The notes beneath the pieces were generated by a model. That model ran no database searches and was not told the origin of the DNA. It saw only the letters and a list, made by a program, of their open reading frames with translations. From an uncultured Noviherbaspirillum sp. (lineage in GTDB: Bacteria; Pseudomonadota; Gammaproteobacteria; Burkholderiales; Burkholderiaceae_D), in contig CBIHNU010000013.1 in assembly GCA_966211585.1 (NCBI GenBank), positions 36,384 through 100,383 of the forward strand: a stretch of DNA of 64,000 bases, read 5' to 3'. The translations under genes and the position numbers were made by a program. Below are positions 6,111-13,511 of the stretch, piece by piece. Each line of letters opens with the position of its first letter. Within the stretch, counting starts at the first letter, position 1.

Positions 6111-6318
6111 ATCCGCGAAACGATACCATATGATATCTTCCCTGTAGGCATTTTTGCGTTCAAGAAAGTGTTTTCCGTACGACAAAAATACAACGTTGCG
6201 CGACGGAAATTACGATAACTTACAGGTCTTCGTAAAAGCAGATTACAGCGGGTGCTGAATGGTGCTGCCAGTCAATTTGACCTCGCTACTTCTTCGTTAT
6301 ATGGGCAAGGGGAAACAT

Positions 6319-7227
6319 ATGGTGAACCGATTTTTCAGGGAATGTGCGGTGGTGGCGGGACTGCTGGGCATCGTCTTGCCGGCGCACGCCGACTATCAAT
6401 CGGCGCGCGCGGCATACGAACACGGCGACTATGCCGTGGCCCTGAAAGAGTTTTCGGATGCCGCTTCGCAAGGCAACGTGGAGGCCGAAAACAACCTCGG
6501 CATCATGTATGAAAAAGGCCAGGGCGTGCCGGTGAATTACGCGCGGGCGATGGCCTGGTATCGCAAGGCGGCCGACCAGAATTTCGCCCCGGCGCAAACA
6601 TCGGTCGGTTATCTCCATGCCCATGGATTCGGCGTGCCGCGCGATTACGCGCAGGCGATGGCCTGGTATCGCAAGGCGGCCGACCAGAATTTTGCCCAGG
6701 CGCAGAACAATATCGGTGCGATGTACGAGATGGGGCATGGCGTTGCCGCCGATCCGGTACAGGCAGCAGAGTGGTATCGGAAAGCCGCCGATCAAGGGCT
6801 GGCATTGGGACAGGCCAATCTCGGCTTTCTGCATGCGCGAGGCAAAGGCGTCGCCAAAGACGATGCGAAGGCGGTCGAACTCTACGTCAAGGCGGCAGCG
6901 CAGAATCTGCCGCTGGCGCAAAACAATCTCGGCTACATGTACGCGCAGGGACGCGGGGTGCAAGAGGATTACGCGGCGGCGGCTTCGTGGTATCGCAAGG
7001 CAGCGGCGCAAGGATTCGGTCTCGCCGGATTCAATCTGGCCCGTCTATACGAGCAAGGCAAGGGCGTGCCGCAAGATAATGCCCAAGCCCTTTCGTGGCT
7101 GACGCAATCGGCAAACGCCGGCTACAAACCGGCGATGCGGCGCCTTGCGGATGTTTATACGCGCGGCTTGCTGGGGCAAAAGCCGTCTCCGGAAACCGCG
7201 AACCACTGGGCCGACAAGGCACGCTGA
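6319..7227 (+). CDS. Secreted Sel1-like repeat protein (7 SLRs, 302 aa)
   Basis: Signal peptide ending AHA|D and seven about 36-aa repeats of the type AQNNLG.MY..G.GV..D...A..WYRKAA.Q. RBS AAGGGG upstream of ATG 6319. Confidence 0.9.
   Translation: MVNRFFRECAVVAGLLGIVLPAHADYQSARAAYEHGDYAVALKEFSDAASQGNVEAENNLGIMYEKGQGVPVNYARAMAWYRKAADQNFAPAQTSVGYLHAHGFGVPRDYAQAMAWYRKAADQNFAQAQNNIGAMYEMGHGVAADPVQAAEWYRKAADQGLALGQANLGFLHARGKGVAKDDAKAVELYVKAAAQNLPLAQNNLGYMYAQGRGVQEDYAAAASWYRKAAAQGFGLAGFNLARLYEQGKGVPQDNAQALSWLTQSANAGYKPAMRRLADVYTRGLLGQKPSPETANHWADKAR
6546..6692 (+). repeat. 39-bp identical direct repeat within the Sel1 gene
   Basis: GGCGATGGCCTGGTATCGCAAGGCGGCCGACCAGAATTT at 6546-6584 and 6654-6692, 108 bp apart (one SLR). 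Confidence 0.85.
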
Positions 7228-7289
7228 GCAATCGCAATAGCAAATACAAATAACAATAACGAGAAGTGCACAAGAGGGAGGGGGAGTAC

Positions 7290-9176
7290 ATGTCGGCATC
7301 AATGCTTGCCATGGTCGGGACGGACGAAACAAAAAGCGTTCGCGAGTTGCTGGCCGATCCGATTTTCGAGAAAGCGTCCTATCTGGGGTTGGCCCGTCTG
7401 CTCCCGTACACATCCGAAAGAGTATTTCAGACAGGCGAATATCTGTACCGCGCCGGTCAGCAGGCTGACGAATTTCTCTATCTGCTGGAAGGCAAGGTCA
7501 AGCTGGTTTCGCAGAAGCAGCAGGAGATCGCTCTTGACAGTCGCCGGCTAGGGCAGGAGGCGGCCACCGATTTCGATCATTACCTTGCGGATGCCATCGC
7601 GCTCTCTCCGGTTCGGGTTCTGGTCATTTCACGAAAACACCTCGCATCGCTGTTTGAAACCCGCCCCGGCCTGCGTGCAAAGTTCTACTTTTCCCTGATG
7701 CAGACCTTTACAGGCGACCATCTGCATCCGCCGGAACGTCCCGCGAAAGAGGTTCTGCCCTTGCCGAATGCCGGCAAGGAGCCGGAACGGATTGCAACGC
7801 TGGTCGGCTGGCTGCTCACCTTCATCGCGCCGGCGCTGATTCTTTATTTCGGCCACGGCTGGGGGCTGGAAAACGATGCGCGCTATTTTCTCGCGATCTT
7901 TTCGTCGACCATCGTAATGTGGGTTTTCACGCTGGTCGATGAATACATTCCCGGAATTTTTGCGTTGCTGGCGACGCTGGCAATGGGACTGGTGCCGACG
8001 CCAGTCATCCTGTCAGGCCTCGCGTCAGACGGTTTCATGCTGGCGATGAGCGTACTCGGGCTTGCGGCCGTCATCGTCTCGTCCGGCCTCAGTTACCGGC
8101 TGCTGCTGGTGTTGCTGATGCGGCTGCCGAACACCGCGTTCTGGCAGAACAGCGCGCTGGTCGGACTCGGTTTCCTGCTGACCCCGTTGATCCCGTCGAT
8201 CAATGGCCGGGTCGCACTGGTGACGCCGTTCCTGTCCGACATGCTGGAGATACTGCATCATAAATCCAGGGGGCCTGCCGCCAACCAGCTTGCGGTGTCC
8301 GCATTTGCCGGTGTCAGCCTGTTGTCGGGCGCCTTCCTCAGCAGCAAGTCGGTCAATTTCGTGATTTTCGGTTTGCTGCCTGACCAGATACAGGATCAGT
8401 TCCAGTGGCTGAACTGGCTGGCCGCTTCCGCCGCCACGGCTCTGGTGCTGCTGGTTCTGTACATCGTGATGGCCATGGCGCTACCCGGCGGCCGCGAGCC
8501 GTCGAAGCTGTCGAAAGAGCAGTTGCAGATCCAGCTGTCGTTACTCGGCAAGTTGAAGCATCGGGAATGGGCCGCGATATGCGGCGTGGTCCTGTTCATG
8601 CTCGGCGTCGTCACTACCTCGCTGCACAAGGTGTCGTCCCCCTGGCTGGGCATGGCGATCCTGTTCGGCATGTTGCTGTTCGGCGCGTTGAACAAGAACG
8701 AATTCAGGGAAAAGATCGATTGGCCGTTCCTGATCTACCTCGGCGGCATCGTTGGCATCACCAGCGCCATCAATTACCTCGGCATCGGGCAACTGATTGC
8801 TTCGCACCTACCTTGGCTGGGCGAATACATGCACACCAATTTCAGCCTGTTCGTGCTGTTGCTGAGCGGTGTGATCTTCATCGTTCGCCTCGCCGTGCCG
8901 ATCACCGCCACCATCGTCATCATGGCGACCATCCTGATGCCGGTTGCGGTGCACTACGGCGTCAATCCATGGGTAGTCGGTTTCATCATCCTGATCATCG
9001 GGGAAATGTGGTTTTTTCCGTATCAGTGCTCGTACTACCTGCAGTTCCGGCAATTGACCAAGGGCCGGGTCTACGATGAAAACCTGTTCCTGAAATTCAA
9101 TGCCTTTTCCAATCTCATGAAGCTCGCGGCGATTTACGCATCGATGCCTTACTGGAAGTCGCTGGGGCTGCTATGA
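7290..9176 (+). CDS. Cyclic-nucleotide-binding domain fused to SLC13/DASS-family anion transporter
   Basis: N-terminal CNB-like fold (VFQTGEYLYRAG...FLYLLEGKVKL...VRVLVISR), Pro-rich linker, then many hydrophobic segments resembling DASS/CitT (EKIDWPFLIYLGG; EMWFFPYQ). RBS GGGAG. Confidence 0.8.
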   Translation: MSASMLAMVGTDETKSVRELLADPIFEKASYLGLARLLPYTSERVFQTGEYLYRAGQQADEFLYLLEGKVKLVSQKQQEIALDSRRLGQEAATDFDHYLADAIALSPVRVLVISRKHLASLFETRPGLRAKFYFSLMQTFTGDHLHPPERPAKEVLPLPNAGKEPERIATLVGWLLTFIAPALILYFGHGWGLENDARYFLAIFSSTIVMWVFTLVDEYIPGIFALLATLAMGLVPTPVILSGLASDGFMLAMSVLGLAAVIVSSGLSYRLLLVLLMRLPNTAFWQNSALVGLGFLLTPLIPSINGRVALVTPFLSDMLEILHHKSRGPAANQLAVSAFAGVSLLSGAFLSSKSVNFVIFGLLPDQIQDQFQWLNWLAASAATALVLLVLYIVMAMALPGGREPSKLSKEQLQIQLSLLGKLKHREWAAICGVVLFMLGVVTTSLHKVSSPWLGMAILFGMLLFGALNKNEFREKIDWPFLIYLGGIVGITSAINYLGIGQLIASHLPWLGEYMHTNFSLFVLLLSGVIFIVRLAVPITATIVIMATILMPVAVHYGVNPWVVGFIILIIGEMWFFPYQCSYYLQFRQLTKGRVYDENLFLKFNAFSNLMKLAAIYASMPYWKSLGLL

Positions 9177-10207
9177 AAAAACTCCGGTTGGCGATGATCG
9201 TCGTTTTTCTGGTTGCGTTGGCGGCGACCGTGGTGGTGTTCAATACCACCAAGCCGCGGCTGTTGATCCTACAGAGTTACGACCGCGACTATGCGTGGAC
9301 TCGGGATGTCGATGTCGGCATCAATCGCGTGCTCAAGGACCGAAATGACTATTCGGTGCGCTGGTTTTACATGGATACCAAGAGCCATCCTTGGCACGAC
9401 TACAAGGTCAACGTCGGGAAAACGGTCAAAAAGCTGATCGAGAACTGGCAGCCAAACGTCGTCATTGCAGTCGATGACGATGCGCAGAAATATGCAATGG
9501 AATCGTTCATCAATCGCCCGGACATCAAGATCATCTTCTCCGGCATGAATGGCTCCCTGGCCGACTACGGTTACGACAAGGCGAACAATGTGACAGGCAT
9601 CCTGGAGCGCAAACCTTTTAAGGCGGTGAAGGAAACGCTGCTGCTGATCGCCTCTTCGCAAAACCGCACGCGTCCTGTGCGCATCATGTTTCTTGGCGAT
9701 GCGTCCGAGTCTGTGCATAACGATGAACAGGAATTCAGAAAATTCGACTGGGGGCCGATCCAGGTGCTCGATTCGCGGTTTGCAAAGACCTTCGACGATT
9801 GGCGTTCCGCCATCGAGTTTTGCAATAACAATAATGTGGATTTCATCATTACCGCGAATTACCGGAAAATCCTCAGGGAAAAGGGCGTCAAGGGCCTGAT
9901 GCCGGTGCAGGAAATTCTCCAGTGGACCGATCAGAATTCACGCGTGCCGCTCATCGGGACGAATGCCTTTTTTGTCGAGGACGGCGGCTCGCTGGCGATC
10001 GGTACCTCGCCTTACGAACAGGGCGAAGTCGCGCTGTCGATGGCAAACGACATTTTGTACAAGGGAAAAAAGACGAGCGATATTCCGGTGCAGTCCACCA
10101 GGCAGTTCGTGGTCGCCATGCGCGCGTCGGGGATCAAGAAATGGAATATCAAGCTGCCGACGGTCTATGAATCCGCGGCGCGCTCGTCGGCCAACTTCTA
10201 TCCGTGA
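9173..10207 (+). CDS. Membrane-anchored ABC-type solute-binding protein (ABC_sub_bind-like)
   Basis: N-terminal hydrophobic anchor, 'LILQSYDRDYAWT', 'PNVVIAVDDDA', 'NVTGILE', 'GEVALSMANDILYKGKKTSDIPV'. ATGA overlap with the upstream gene. Confidence 0.8.
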   Translation: MKKLRLAMIVVFLVALAATVVVFNTTKPRLLILQSYDRDYAWTRDVDVGINRVLKDRNDYSVRWFYMDTKSHPWHDYKVNVGKTVKKLIENWQPNVVIAVDDDAQKYAMESFINRPDIKIIFSGMNGSLADYGYDKANNVTGILERKPFKAVKETLLLIASSQNRTRPVRIMFLGDASESVHNDEQEFRKFDWGPIQVLDSRFAKTFDDWRSAIEFCNNNNVDFIITANYRKILREKGVKGLMPVQEILQWTDQNSRVPLIGTNAFFVEDGGSLAIGTSPYEQGEVALSMANDILYKGKKTSDIPVQSTRQFVVAMRASGIKKWNIKLPTVYESAARSSANFYP

Positions 10208-10315
10208 AGACGCATATTGCTTGCGCGTGCTCGATCATATTTGCCGGGAGCCGCGCATATCGGCGTACGTGTTGCGATAGAGGAGCAATCGCCAACCCGG
10301 GAGGGACATTACAAA

Positions 10316-12217
10316 ATGAACTCTGCTAGCACACGCAAGTTGCCGCTGCACCCAAGAAGCTGGCCGATTGCGATCAAGCTCGCCGTCGCGCTGGCGCTCG
10401 CATCCTTGCTGCCGATGCTGATCGTGTCGTACCACAATCTGCAGCAAAGCATAGAAGTCACTGCGGAACGCGAATCCGAGGAACTGGAGCAATTGGCATC
10501 CAGTACAGGCGCGCGAATCGATCAATTGATCAAGGACACCGGGCACACCATCTCCTACTTCAGCTGGAGCGAGGAAGTGGTCCGTCTCGCCGCCGCACCC
10601 GACAAGAGCAGCCGCGAGCGGGTGGAAGACAAGATGGCGCGCCTGATGACAGCCAATGAAGACATCGAGCTGTTCATGGTGCTCGATGGCGGCGGCAAGG
10701 TGATCGCATCGAGCAAAGCGCAGTATGTCGGCCGCAAGCTGAATTTTCGGGATTATTTCAAGGAGGCGAGCAGGGGACGGGATTTCATCTCGGATCTCGA
10801 AGTCGGCACGGCCAGCCACAATCCCGGAATGTATTTTTCGGCGCCGGTACGCACTGCGACCGGCCGTGTATCCGGTGTGGCGGTGCTGAAGCTGAAAGGT
10901 GATGCGATCCGGATCATCATGGAGGAGGCGCGCAACCGCGAAGCCCGGCTGATGACCTTTCTGGTCGATAAGGACGGCATCATCATTTATCACCCCGAGC
11001 GAAAAGTTCTCTATCACAGCCTTGCACCGTTGCCGGCCGAGCTGCAGAAAAAATTGATCGACGAGAAGCGCTTTGGCGTTGATGTCGATGTGATTCACAG
11101 TTTCAATCTGCAGGATCTTGCAGGCAAGATGATCAATGCCAGGCAGCCGGACCACGCACGCTACCTGTCCCCGATCAGCAAGGTGCCGGAAATCGTCGGC
11201 TTCGCACCCACGCTGCGAAAGAACTGGCAAGTAGCGGTTGCCGAAACCGAGGATGCCTATGCCAGGCCGCTGCAGCAGTTGTTCCGCAATGCCGTCACCA
11301 GCGTCGCGCTGATCGGGCTGATCTTTGTCGGCCTCGCCTTCCTGTTCGCGCGCACGTTCACTCGTCCGTTGAAGGCGCTCACCGATTCCGCCGGCGCCAT
11401 CGAAAGAGGCGATCTGGAGCAGGCACATGTCGCTGTCTCGACGGAGGACGAGCTGGGACGCTTTACGCATACCTTCAATTCCATGATCGACGGCATCAAG
11501 GCAAGACAGCGGGAACGCGACATTTTCGGACGCATGGTTTCGCCGCAGGTAAGAGAAAAACTGCTGACCGGCGAATTGAAACTGGGCGGCGAAAACTTGC
11601 GGGTTTCGGTGCTGTTTTCCGATATCCGCGGTTTCAGCACGATGTCGGAAAAAATGAGCCCGCATGACGTCGTGATGCTGCTGAACGAATATCTGAAGGA
11701 AATGACCGAGGCGGTGCAGCCGTGGGGCGGTTACGTCAACAATTTCATCGGCGATGCGATCGTCGTGATTTTCGGCGCGCCGGAAGCGCGCGCCGAATGC
11801 GAGTTCTCCGCGATACGGGCCGCGCAGGCAATGAAAGTCCGTCTCGACGTACTGAATCGGCGGCGTGCCGAGCTGGGCGACCCGCCGATCATCACCGGCA
11901 TCGGCATCAGTACCGGCAAGGTGGTGGCAGGGCAAATCGGATCGCTGGAACGCTTCATGTATACGGTGATCGGCGATGCCGTCAATGTCGCCGCCCGCCT
12001 CGAAGGGTTGACCAAGGAATTCGACGGCAACCCGATCCTGGTGAATTCGGCAACCTATGAGGGCTGCCGCCAAAAGCAAATCGAAATCCAGTTCATCGAT
12101 CAGGGCTTGCAAAGGGTGAAGGGCAGGGAAGAACCGGTCCACGTGTATGGCGTGTATCCGGATGACAGCGCGGGCACGGATACCGCGCCACCGGCAGAGC
12201 AATCGCTGGTACGGTAG
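10316..12217 (+). CDS. Class III nucleotidyl (adenylate/guanylate) cyclase with periplasmic Cache domain and HAMP
   Basis: TM-Cache (FRDYFKEA, GMYFSAPV)-TM-HAMP (DELGRFTHTFNSM)-cyclase. Motifs FSDIRGFS, NNFIGDA, GIGISTG, YTVIGDAVNVAARLE, VKGREEPV. Confidence 0.9.
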   Translation: MNSASTRKLPLHPRSWPIAIKLAVALALASLLPMLIVSYHNLQQSIEVTAERESEELEQLASSTGARIDQLIKDTGHTISYFSWSEEVVRLAAAPDKSSRERVEDKMARLMTANEDIELFMVLDGGGKVIASSKAQYVGRKLNFRDYFKEASRGRDFISDLEVGTASHNPGMYFSAPVRTATGRVSGVAVLKLKGDAIRIIMEEARNREARLMTFLVDKDGIIIYHPERKVLYHSLAPLPAELQKKLIDEKRFGVDVDVIHSFNLQDLAGKMINARQPDHARYLSPISKVPEIVGFAPTLRKNWQVAVAETEDAYARPLQQLFRNAVTSVALIGLIFVGLAFLFARTFTRPLKALTDSAGAIERGDLEQAHVAVSTEDELGRFTHTFNSMIDGIKARQRERDIFGRMVSPQVREKLLTGELKLGGENLRVSVLFSDIRGFSTMSEKMSPHDVVMLLNEYLKEMTEAVQPWGGYVNNFIGDAIVVIFGAPEARAECEFSAIRAAQAMKVRLDVLNRRRAELGDPPIITGIGISTGKVVAGQIGSLERFMYTVIGDAVNVAARLEGLTKEFDGNPILVNSATYEGCRQKQIEIQFIDQGLQRVKGREEPVHVYGVYPDDSAGTDTAPPAEQSLVR

Positions 12218-12398
12218 TCGCTCCCTCTTTTTACGAATTCCCGGCAACGCCGGCCAGGAGTCGTGCTCGCGTCCGCAGCGCGCCCGCATGATTCGCGAAG
12301 GCAGCACCGAAATGCCGTCAGCCGGCGGCGATTTGCGCCTCGAACGCTGAGCGGCGGTTAAATCCTTTAAAATAGCGGCCTATCTTAGGATTCAAATC

Positions 12399-13511
12399 AT
12401 GGCCATCTCGACAACACAAGAAATCACCGCAGAACTGCGCGCCGGCCGCATGGTCATCCTGGTGGATGAGGAAGATCGCGAGAACGAAGGCGACCTGGTG
12501 CTCGCAGCGGAATTCGTGACGGCCGAGGCGATCAATTTCATGGCGAAATACGGCCGCGGCCTGATCTGTCTGACGTTGACCGAAGAGCGCTGCAACCAGT
12601 TGCACCTGCCGATGATGACGAGCCGTAACGGAACCTCCTACGGCACCAACTTCACCGTATCGATCGAGGCCGCGGAAGGCGTGACAACCGGTATTTCCGC
12701 CGCCGATCGTGCGAAGACCGTGCAAGTCGCGGTGGCCCGCAACGCGAAGCCATCCGATATCGTGCAGCCTGGCCATATTTTTCCCTTGAAAGCGCAAAAG
12801 GGCGGTGTGCTGATGCGCGCCGGCCATACCGAAGCGGGTTGTGATTTCGCCGAGCTGGCGGGCCTGACCCCGGCCGCGGTGATTTGTGAAATCATGAAGG
12901 ACGACGGCACGATGGCACGTCTGCCGGATCTGATCGAGTTCGCGAAAGAACACGGCCTCAAGATCGGCACGATCGCCGATCTGATTCATTATCGCAGCCA
13001 GAACGAGAGCATCGTCGAGCGTATCGGTGAGCGCATCATGCATACCGCGCATGGCAGCTTCAGGGCCATTGCCTATCGCGACAAGCCGAGCGGCGGCGCA
13101 CATCTGGCATTGGTGCATGGCGAGCTGAACCCGGAACTGGAAACGCTGGTACGGGTCCATCAACCGGTATCACTTCTCGACCTGCTGGAAACCCAGGCAA
13201 CGACGCACTCCTGGACCATGACTTCGGCGATGGCCGCGATCAGCGCCGCCGAGCGCGGCGCGATGGTCTTGCTGAATTGCGAAGAATCGGCGGAACAGAT
13301 GTTCGCGCAGTTCGCTGCGCTGAATACTCCTGAGCAGAAACCGCAGCCGCGCGGTTCGCGCATGGACTTGCGCACCTACGGTATCGGCGCCCAGATCCTG
13401 AAGGATCTCGGGGTCGGCAAGATGAAGCTGCTTGCCAGCCCGAGAAAAATGCCGTCCATGACAGGCTTCAATCTTGAAGTGGTCGGCTACCAGGCCAATC
13501 CAGAGGCCTGA
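12399..13511 (+). CDS. ribBA: 3,4-dihydroxy-2-butanone-4-phosphate synthase fused to a degenerate GTP cyclohydrolase II domain
   Basis: [11 protein letters not shown] and [15 protein letters not shown] motifs. The C-terminal GCHII-like domain lacks the Zn-binding cysteines. Confidence 0.92.

What the first reader, a model, noticed from the sequence alone, without database searches (positions are those of the whole stretch)
11732..11755. Cyclase has Asn at the ATP-specifying Lys position (NNFIGD instead of DKFIGD)
Seen: TAC GTC AAC AAT TTC ATC GGC GAT = YVNNFIGD, with AAT at 11741-11743. Both metal-binding Asp residues, the Thr of YTVIG and the N/R of VNVAARL are intact. Established: Lys here selects ATP in adenylate cyclases and Glu selects GTP in guanylate cyclases. 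Inference: the enzyme is catalytically intact but has relaxed or altered base specificity. AAT is one base from AAA/AAG, so a private mutation is also possible.
Basis: partly seen in the sequence, partly recalled or inferred. Interest (0 to 1): 0.62.

Follow-up and report, generated by a model that had tools for sequence, protein, structure and literature searches.

The report
Cyclase clade with Asn at base-selecting site
A membrane sensor enzyme that makes a cyclic-nucleotide signal carries asparagine where its relatives use lysine to pick ATP. This is the fixed hallmark of a whole uncharacterised enzyme lineage, not a one-off mutation, so its product needs to be measured.

Summary
Window 11732-11755 reads YVNNFIGD in a 633-aa dCache-HAMP class III cyclase (10316-12217, +). 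Asn476 (AAT 11741-11743) aligns with the base-specifying Lys of solved adenylate cyclases and with Glu488 of the guanylate cyclase Cya2. Both metal Asp residues, the class IIIb Thr, the Asn/Arg pair and the gamma-phosphate Lys are intact.

The 'private mutation' option is refuted:
- All 120 closest protein clusters (59-92% identity) read NNF[IV]GD.
- In a library of 50%-identity representatives, every relative above about 50% identity has Asn (one has Ser). Those below have mostly Lys, with a few Arg/His/Gln/Glu.
- The Asn group is monophyletic (support 0.994).
- Both Asn codons are used, and the catalytic domain shows dN/dS of 0.13-0.23.
- Five more positions co-vary with the Asn, including Val483, its cross-strand neighbour.

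The lineage is rare (2 of 201 genomes of the order) but occurs in Beta- and Gammaproteobacteria, Myxococcota and Chloroflexota. It often sits in an operon with a PF04392 binding protein and a secondary transporter.

The substrate cannot be read from sequence. My best guess is an active cyclase that still makes mainly cAMP with relaxed base discrimination. I recall one precedent, Rv1900c. I class this as a new variant of a known kind, of moderate interest.

The parts
10316..12217 (+). Gene for a 633-aa membrane receptor cyclase: TM1, periplasmic dCache_1, TM2, HAMP, transducer element, class IIIb catalytic domain. The ORF opens at TTG 10217; ATG 10316 matches the 624-641-aa homologues.
   Evidence: (dCache_1 3.5e-21, HAMP 1e-10, Guanylate_cyc 4e-21). 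AlphaFold model with mean pLDDT 86.5.
10463..11059 (+). Periplasmic dCache_1 sensor domain (residues 50-248).
   Evidence: Strand/helix pattern in the model.
11342..11500 (+). HAMP domain (residues 343-395).
11504..11575 (+). Conserved linker RERDIFGRMVSPQVREKLL (residues 397-420), at the place of the cyclase transducer element. It contains FGRM, compared with the FGRY motif.
   Evidence: Invariant columns R397, F404, G405, V408, S409, P410, R413, L416, L417. CTE motif as described in PMC5995499.
11600..12133 (+). Class III cyclase catalytic domain (residues 429-606).
   Evidence: PDB matches at 1.7e-33 to 4.6e-26.
11621..11623 (+). Asp436, first metal-binding Asp (FSDIRGF).
   Evidence: Invariant.
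11732..11734 (+). Tyr473, a clade-specific residue (Lys-type relatives have V/T/I/L/M).
11741..11743 (+). Asn476 (AAT) at the base-specifying Lys/Glu position; this is the finding.
11753..11755 (+). Asp480, second metal-binding Asp, at the tip of the beta2-beta3 hairpin.
11762..11764 (+). Val483, a clade-specific residue (Lys-type relatives have Met/Leu) and predicted cross-strand neighbour of Asn476.
   Evidence: DSSP strands 473-478 and 481-486 with a two-residue turn.
11933..11935 (+). Gln540, a clade-specific residue (Lys-type relatives have Asn/Ala in GN[IF]GS).
11963..11965 (+). Thr550, the second substrate residue; Thr in place of Asp defines class IIIb.
   Evidence: Definition in PMC2613629.
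11984..11998 (+). Asn557...Arg561, the transition-state pair (VNVAAR).
12119..12121 (+). Lys602 (VKGR), at the place of the triphosphate-positioning Lys.
   Evidence: At least 90% conserved. Role of that Lys taken from PMC2576301.
9173..10207 (+). Membrane-anchored PF04392 (ABC_sub_bind) periplasmic binding protein with no ABC permease or ATPase nearby; the most constant partner of Asn-type cyclases.
7266..9176 (+). DASS/SLC13-type transporter with an N-terminal CNB-like domain. Its 4-base overlap with the next gene suggests one operon.

Best explanation
The gene encodes a working receptor-type class IIIb nucleotide cyclase. A periplasmic dCache domain, probably acting with the co-operonic PF04392 binding protein, senses a ligand. 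HAMP and the transducer element relay the signal, and a homodimeric catalytic domain cyclises a nucleoside triphosphate.

Asn476 is not an accident. It is the fixed, selected hallmark of a monophyletic lineage that arose once from Lys-type dCache/HAMP cyclases. It came with a small set of co-substitutions: Tyr473, Val483, Glu496, Gln540 and Asn577. Val483 packs against Asn476 across the beta2-beta3 hairpin.

I infer that the enzyme still uses a purine NTP, most likely ATP, and that the base is read less strictly than by Lys. The Asn amide can donate a hydrogen bond to adenine N1 or accept one from guanine N1-H. The paired Lys-to-Asn and Met-to-Val changes enlarge the pocket rather than fill it.

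Shown here: position, conservation, monophyly, intact catalytic set, purifying selection, operon context. Inferred: catalytic activity, product identity, relaxed specificity.
For: - Position: aligned opposite Lys of CyaB, bPAC and CyaC and opposite Glu of Cya2. In Cya2, the nearest solved homologue, the single exchange E488K at this site switches GTP to ATP use (PMC5995499).
- Conservation: 121 of 121 close sequences read NNF[IV]GD. 23 representatives at 50% or more identity have Asn and 1 has Ser; representatives below that have mostly Lys.
- Monophyly: 71 Asn + 1 Ser, support 0.994, with a Lys-type dCache_3-HAMP sister group.
- Selection: both Asn codons are used. The catalytic domain has dN/dS 0.13-0.23 and is the most conserved part of the protein.
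- Catalytic set: D436, D480, T550, N557 and R561 are invariant and K602 is at least 90% conserved.
- Co-varying residues, and hairpin geometry that puts 476 opposite 483.
- No special likeness to pyrimidine cyclases: PycC models score Lys-type controls as high or higher.
- Precedent, recalled from the abstract of Sinha et al. 2005 (EMBO J 24:663; paper not held): Rv1900c has Asn342 at this position and is an active adenylate cyclase with about 7% guanylate cyclase side-activity. PMC4886424 confirms its atypical residues and dual activity.
Against: - No activity or substrate data exist for any member, and literature searches found none.
- Sequence rules fail for some bacterial cyclases (XC_0250).
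- Asn is about 3 Å shorter than Lys, so it may not reach the base at all.
- The strict invariance of Asn (never Lys, Arg or Gln in about 140 sequences) argues for a specific positive role rather than mere relaxation.
- The Rv1900c precedent rests on memory, and that enzyme belongs to a distant subclass.
- The genome already has a canonical Lys/Thr CHASE2 cyclase. A second cyclase making the same cAMP is possible but not required.
Confidence: 0.5

Rival explanations
1. Changed product. The Asn clade makes mainly something other than cAMP: cGMP, both purine cNMPs in comparable amounts, or a pyrimidine or other cyclic nucleotide. That would define a separate signalling channel beside the genome's canonical adenylate cyclase.
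For: - This one position alone flips specificity in the nearest solved homologue.
- In the Pycsar cytidylate cyclase EaPycC, the specificity residue R142 lies four residues before the second metal Asp (D146), i.e. at the same place (PMC11224242).
- Asn reads uracil in PycTIR and in some CD-NTases (same paper).
- Absolute invariance of Asn plus five co-varying residues.
- The genome already has a Lys/Thr cyclase.
- The operon's CNB-like domain has a conserved but non-canonical phosphate-binding cassette.
Against: - There is no Glu, which marks known guanylate cyclases (PMC4215837).
- The pocket changes (Lys to Asn, Met to Val) remove bulk. Pyrimidine cyclases add bulky Tyr/Phe/Arg/Gln residues.
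- PycC models do not favour the clade over Lys-type controls.
- No Pycsar-type effector is adjacent.
- The CNB-DASS partner is confined to one sublineage. Other clade members pair with MFS transporters or with none, so it is not a dedicated receptor.
Confidence: 0.25
2. Ordinary ATP-specific adenylate cyclase. Asn476 does not change base choice but tunes kinetics or regulation, for example lower basal activity and a wider ligand-dependent range, or loss of a Lys-dependent CO2/bicarbonate response.
For: - Lys-to-Ala mutants of Rv1625c and Slr1991 keep measurable, CO2-responsive activity, while the Lys646 mutant of CyaB1 loses the CO2 response. So this Lys is tied to regulation in at least one class IIIb enzyme (PMC2613629).
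- Thr550 and the rest of the pocket are of the class IIIb adenylate cyclase type.
- In Rv1900c the equivalent Asn is reported to be dispensable for activity (recalled from memory).
Against: - If the residue were unimportant for base choice, drift to Ser, Ala, Gln or back to Lys would be expected. Only one Ser is seen.
- The role of Lys in CO2 sensing is itself disputed.
Confidence: 0.2
3. Catalytically dead or very weak domain, kept as a scaffold or sensor.
For: Loss of the substrate Lys lowers activity in several model cyclases (general knowledge; PMC4215837, notes that such changes often diminish activity).
Against: - All metal, transition-state and phosphate residues are invariant over several phyla.
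- The catalytic domain is the most conserved part, with dN/dS 0.13-0.23.
- Degenerate domains seen in two-domain relatives lose several residues at once.
Confidence: 0.04
4. Private point mutation or sequencing error of an AAA/AAG Lys codon.
For: AAT is one base from AAA/AAG.
Against: Asn is present in every clade member from independent assemblies and phyla, and is encoded by both AAT and AAC.
Confidence: 0.01

Closest known systems
Cya2 of Synechocystis PCC 6803 (PDB 2W01) and its E488K adenylate cyclase variant (6FHT)
   Same: Nearest solved catalytic domains (E 7e-32 and 1.7e-33). Same fold, same metal Asp and Asn/Arg residues, and the same N-terminal transducer element. The residue at this exact position decides GTP versus ATP use.
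   Different: Cya2 has Glu/Gly at the two substrate positions and a CHASE2 sensor. The window protein has Asn/Thr and dCache-HAMP.
Class IIIb adenylate cyclases with a Lys/Thr pair: P. aeruginosa CyaB (3R5G), Spirulina CyaC (1WC0), bPAC/OaPAC
   Same: Thr at the second substrate position and the GDA..FGAP and YTVIGD.VN.A.R motifs. 40-50% identity in the catalytic domain for the nearest Lys-type HAMP cyclases.
   Different: All have Lys where this clade has Asn. They also have Met/Leu at 483, Asn/Ala at 540 and small aliphatic residues at 473.
Mycobacterium tuberculosis Rv1900c (PDB 1YBT/1YBU)
   Same: By my recollection of Sinha et al. 2005, it has Asn342 at the substrate-Lys position yet is an active adenylate cyclase with a guanylate cyclase side-activity. 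Its atypical residues and dual activity are confirmed in PMC4886424.
   Different: It is a soluble alpha/beta-hydrolase fusion from a distant subclass, and it also lacks the catalytic Asn (it has His). It was not among the 35 PDB sequences matched at E <= 1e-10. The residue-level alignment could not be checked here.
Pycsar pyrimidine cyclases (PycC, e.g. EaPycC)
   Same: Class III fold, and a non-Lys residue (R142) at the same position that takes part in base choice.
   Different: PycC proteins are short soluble enzymes paired with TIR or TM effectors, and their pocket is filled with bulky residues. The PycC HMMs score Lys-type controls as well as this protein.

Membership tests
Class III nucleotide cyclase (PF00211) | Sequence or fold match to the catalytic domain | tested here: met
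   Pfam 75.9 bits against a cut-off of 21.9. PDB matches down to 1.7e-33. Confident model with the expected beta-alpha-beta core.
Class III nucleotide cyclase (PF00211) | Two metal-binding Asp residues | tested here: met
   D436 and D480, invariant.
Class III nucleotide cyclase (PF00211) | Transition-state Asn/Arg pair and triphosphate Lys | tested here: met
   N557 and R561 are invariant; K602 is at least 90% conserved.
Class III nucleotide cyclase (PF00211) | Head-to-tail homodimer with cyclase activity | not testable with these tools
   Needs protein biochemistry.
Class IIIb subclass | Thr in place of the substrate-binding Asp | tested here: met
   T550 in YTVIGD. Definition from PMC2613629.
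Canonical ATP-specific adenylate cyclase | Lys at the base-specifying position four residues before the second metal Asp | tested here: not met
   Asn476.
Canonical guanylate cyclase | Glu at the same position | tested here: not met
   Asn476. Cya2 has Glu there.
Pycsar pyrimidine cyclase (PycC) | Specific match to PycC models beyond generic class III similarity | tested here: not met
   82.5 bits, against 101 and 87 bits for Lys-type controls.
Pycsar pyrimidine cyclase (PycC) | Adjacent cNMP-activated TIR or TM effector | tested here: not met
   The neighbours are a DASS transporter, a PF04392 protein, a Sel1 protein and RibBA. They have no PADLOC hits.
HAMP-linked receptor cyclases | TM, extracytoplasmic sensor, TM, HAMP, transducer element, catalytic domain | tested here: met
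   Clade members carry dCache_1, dCache_3 or sCache_3_2 sensors but always HAMP.

The most novel reading that the evidence does not exclude
The Asn476 lineage is a distinct receptor-cyclase family whose main product is not cAMP. It could be cGMP, a mixed purine output or a pyrimidine cNMP. That would give bacteria a ligand-gated second-messenger channel outside phage defence. In some lineages it might be read by the conserved non-canonical CNB-like domain (Arg replaced by Tyr) fused to the co-operonic DASS transporter.
Probability: 0.2. Interest if true: 0.8.

Novelty: new variant of a known kind. Interest (0 to 1): 0.45.

Why it matters
The residue at this position is the main base selector of class III cyclases; in the nearest solved relative it alone switches GTP to ATP use. 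A whole, anciently fixed lineage with Asn there is a natural experiment on how these enzymes read the base. If its product or specificity differs, it would add a signalling channel to environmental Proteobacteria, Myxococcota and Chloroflexota. It would also caution against the blanket annotation 'adenylate cyclase' that these proteins now carry. The test is cheap: one expression construct and an NTP panel.

Tried and rejected
Only 1 of 80 loci (L007, Archangium) was Asn-type, so it was of little use for synteny. I used the look-up of encoding contigs and a DNA pattern search instead.
2. I tried to read product identity from the co-operonic CNB-like domain. Its cassette lacks the canonical Arg, its best PDB match is the non-cNMP sensor DNR, and the fusion is limited to one sublineage. 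It cannot serve as a reporter of the product.
3. A Pycsar relationship is rejected after Lys-type controls scored as high.
4. Literature searches for the motif, for any characterised Asn-type dCache-HAMP cyclase and for the Rv1900c residue numbers found nothing usable. The Rv1900c precedent therefore stays a recollection.
5. The old Actinobacteria survey (PMC2447327) is held only as abstract and references.
6. The N-terminal extensions of the MFS partners are not CNB domains.

Full report
**Observation**

Window 11732-11755 reads TAC GTC AAC AAT TTC ATC GGC GAT, which translates to YVNNFIGD. It is in frame with the ORF 10217-12217 on the + strand. The likely start is the ATG at 10316, which gives 633 aa; the homologues are 624-641 aa. 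Counted from that Met, AAT 11741-11743 is Asn476.

Pfam finds dCache_1 (residues 50-248, 3.5e-21), HAMP (343-395, 1e-10) and Guanylate_cyc (429-606, 4e-21; 75.9 bits against a cut-off of 21.9). An AlphaFold model built on 46 homologues has mean pLDDT 86.5 and shows the expected order: membrane helix, mixed alpha/beta sensor, long helix, catalytic beta-alpha-beta core.

**Is it the base-specifying position?**

Yes. HMMER alignments to solved structures give these pairings:

| Protein | Sequence at the site |
|---|---|
| Window protein | GGYVNNFIGD |
| Engineered Cya2 E488K adenylate cyclase (6FHT) | GGTIDKFMGD |
| Native Cya2 guanylate cyclase (2W01) | GGTIDEFMGD |
| P. aeruginosa CyaB (3R5G) | GGTIDKFVGD |
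| bPAC | GGEVTKFIGD |

The second Asn therefore stands where these enzymes have Lys or Glu, four residues before the second metal Asp.

In Cya2, the closest solved relative, this residue is called the determinant of base specificity, and the single exchange E488K converts the guanylate cyclase into an adenylate cyclase (PMC5995499). Lys and Asp/Thr in adenylate cyclases, and Glu in guanylate cyclases, are the accepted pattern (PMC4215837).

They are invariant in two independent clade alignments:
- D436
- D480
- T550, which places the enzyme in class IIIb as defined in PMC2613629
- N557
- R561

K602, at the place of the triphosphate-positioning Lys (PMC2576301), is at least 90% conserved.

**Private mutation or fixed character?**

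It is fixed.

- All 120 best 90%-identity clusters (59-92% identical over the catalytic part) read NNF[IV]GD.
- An exhaustive HMMER search of 1.84 billion 50%-identity representatives found 98,526 class III relatives. Of the best 150, every representative above about 50% identity has Asn (23) or Ser (1). Below that line almost all have Lys, with a few Arg, His, Gln or Glu.
- In a FastTree of 182 catalytic domains that are non-redundant at 85%, the Asn sequences form one clade of 71 Asn plus 1 Ser, with support 0.994. Its sister group is Lys-type dCache_3-HAMP cyclases.
- At the DNA level the codon is AAT in the window, L087 and L090. It is AAC in L003, L005, L007, L088 and L089.
- Pairwise dN/dS of the catalytic domain is 0.13-0.23, although dS is near saturation. 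This domain is the best conserved part of the protein.

**Distribution**

The lineage is rare. A DNA pattern for NNFIGDA hit 2 of 201 evenly drawn genomes of the order. It is nevertheless phylogenetically wide. Source names and loci include Burkholderiales, Noviherbaspirillum, Rhodocyclaceae, Sulfuritalea, Sulfuriflexus, Thermoflexales/Chloroflexi and Archangium.

**What changed together with Lys to Asn**

I compared 140 Asn-type with 103 Lys-type domains. Six further columns are at least 90% one residue in the clade and at most 10% that residue outside it.

| Position | Asn clade | Lys-type relatives |
|---|---|---|
| 400 (transducer element) | Glu | mostly Ile/Leu/Val |
| 473 | Tyr | V/T/I/L/M |
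| 483 | Val | Met/Leu |
| 496 | Glu | Ala |
| 540 | Gln | Asn/Ala |
| 577 | Asn | Ser |

In the model, strands 473-478 and 481-486 are joined by the two-residue turn G479-D480. That geometry puts residue 476 directly opposite 483 across the hairpin. This is an inference from hairpin geometry, because no coordinates were available.

Both changes remove side-chain volume next to the base pocket. That points to a roomier pocket rather than a narrower one. It is the opposite of the pyrimidine cyclases, which use bulky Phe/Tyr, Arg and Gln residues (PMC11224242).

**Context**

The gene is the last of a co-oriented set:
- a Sel1-repeat protein (6259-7227);
- a DASS transporter with an N-terminal CNB-like domain (7266-9176);
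- a PF04392 binding protein (9173-10207, overlapping the transporter gene by 4 bases);
- the cyclase.

The trio of transporter, binding protein and cyclase recurs in other Betaproteobacteria, in either gene order (L087, L088, L089).

| Lineage (locus) | Partners of the Asn-type cyclase |
|---|---|
| Another betaproteobacterial family (L105) and Sulfuriflexus (L003) | An MFS transporter with a sensor-like N-terminal extension, plus a PF04392 protein |
| Chloroflexota (L005, L090) | A 325-339-aa RskA_C-like protein directly upstream |
| Archangium (L007) | None; the cyclase stands alone |

So the Asn-type catalytic domain is always HAMP-linked, with dCache_1, dCache_3 or sCache_3_2 sensors, and is often paired with a PF04392 protein and a secondary transporter.

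The genome has one other class III cyclase, a CHASE2 enzyme with canonical DKYIGD and YTVMGD motifs. It also has 12 CNB-domain hits.

**Can the product be inferred?**

Not firmly.

The CNB-like domain of the transporter looked like a candidate receptor. Its cassette consensus is RRLGEEAATDFDHYLADAVA. Tyr replaces the phosphate-binding Arg in 26 of 27 homologues, and the window's own sublineage also has Gln for Glu. Its best PDB match is the non-cNMP sensor DNR. It is strongly conserved, so it probably binds something. That ligand could equally be a carboxylate, and the fusion is missing from other branches of the clade.

PADLOC PycC models hit the protein at 82.5 bits. Lys-type controls score 79-101 bits, so this is generic class III similarity.

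The literature shows that specificity cannot always be read from these residues. XC_0250 is a strict guanylate cyclase with non-canonical residues (PMC3770947).

As I recall from the abstract of Sinha et al. 2005, Rv1900c carries Asn342 at this position and is an active adenylate cyclase with about 7% guanylate cyclase side-activity. The paper is not held. PMC4886424 confirms the enzyme's atypical residues and its dual activity.

**Verdict on mechanism**

Most likely (about 0.5) this is an active, ligand-gated purine cyclase that still makes mainly cAMP but reads the base less strictly. The Asn amide can either donate to adenine N1 or accept from guanine N1-H.

| Reading | Probability |
|---|---|
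| Active, mainly cAMP, relaxed base reading (best explanation) | about 0.5 |
| A different main product | 0.25 |
| Fully ATP-specific, with the change serving regulation. The Lys is linked to the CO2 response in CyaB1 but not in Rv1625c or Slr1991 (PMC2613629). | 0.2 |
| Dead domain. Unlikely given the invariant catalytic set. | 0.04 |
| Private mutation. Refuted. | 0.01 |

**Novelty and score**

No characterised member, curated NCBIfam model or paper was found for this lineage. Its sources call it 'adenylate cyclase' or 'adenylate/guanylate cyclase domain-containing protein'.

It is a new variant of a known kind: a class IIIb receptor cyclase family defined by Asn at the base-selecting site. 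Interest is moderate (0.45). The pattern is clean and cheap to test. However, a precedent for Asn at this site exists, and the most probable outcome is a somewhat promiscuous adenylate cyclase.

Noticed in passing
window 7266-9176, cassette at about 7548-7600: The CNB-like domain fused to the DASS transporter has a highly conserved but non-canonical phosphate-binding cassette (consensus GEEAATDFDHYLADA). Tyr replaces the canonical Arg in 26 of 27 homologues, and the window's sublineage also has Gln for Glu. Its best PDB match is the heme/NO sensor DNR. It may bind a ligand other than a classical cNMP.
   Followed up: partly
window 9173-10207; L003 10767-11774; L105 4762-5757; L087 4901-5935: A membrane-anchored PF04392 'ABC substrate-binding' protein with no ABC permease or ATPase nearby is the most constant neighbour of Asn-type cyclases. 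It may hand a ligand to the dCache sensor or to the transporter.
   Followed up: partly
L105 2753-4765 and L003 8666-10762: The MFS transporters in the equivalent modules carry an N-terminal extension of about 270 aa, with weak sCache_3_2 or HAMP similarity and no CNB domain. They are possible sensor-transporter fusions.
   Followed up: partly
window 10235-12307, minus strand: A 690-aa open frame lies antisense to the whole cyclase gene. It is most likely a GC-rich shadow ORF, not a gene.
   Followed up: no
G000 contig C33 46844-47359 (L002): The genome's only other class III cyclase is a CHASE2 receptor cyclase with the canonical Lys/Thr pair (DKYIGD, YTVMGD).
   Followed up: yes
window 12399-13511 and L089 10436-11542: ribBA lies directly downstream of the module in both the window and a 53%-identical relative, so the insertion site is partly syntenic.
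   Followed up: no
proteins P0160, P0166, P0173, P0222 (Arg), P0197 (His), P0242 (Gln), P0263 (Glu): Among otherwise canonical class IIIb relatives at 42-48% identity, the same position is occasionally Arg, His, Gln or Glu. The base-selecting site has been changed several times independently.
   Followed up: no
L005 4978-5997, L090 5022-5999, L103 4070-4990: In Chloroflexota, and in the Lys-type sister group, a protein of about 306-339 aa (RskA_C-like, or without any Pfam hit) sits immediately upstream of the cyclase. It might be a divergent counterpart of the PF04392 partner.
   Followed up: no
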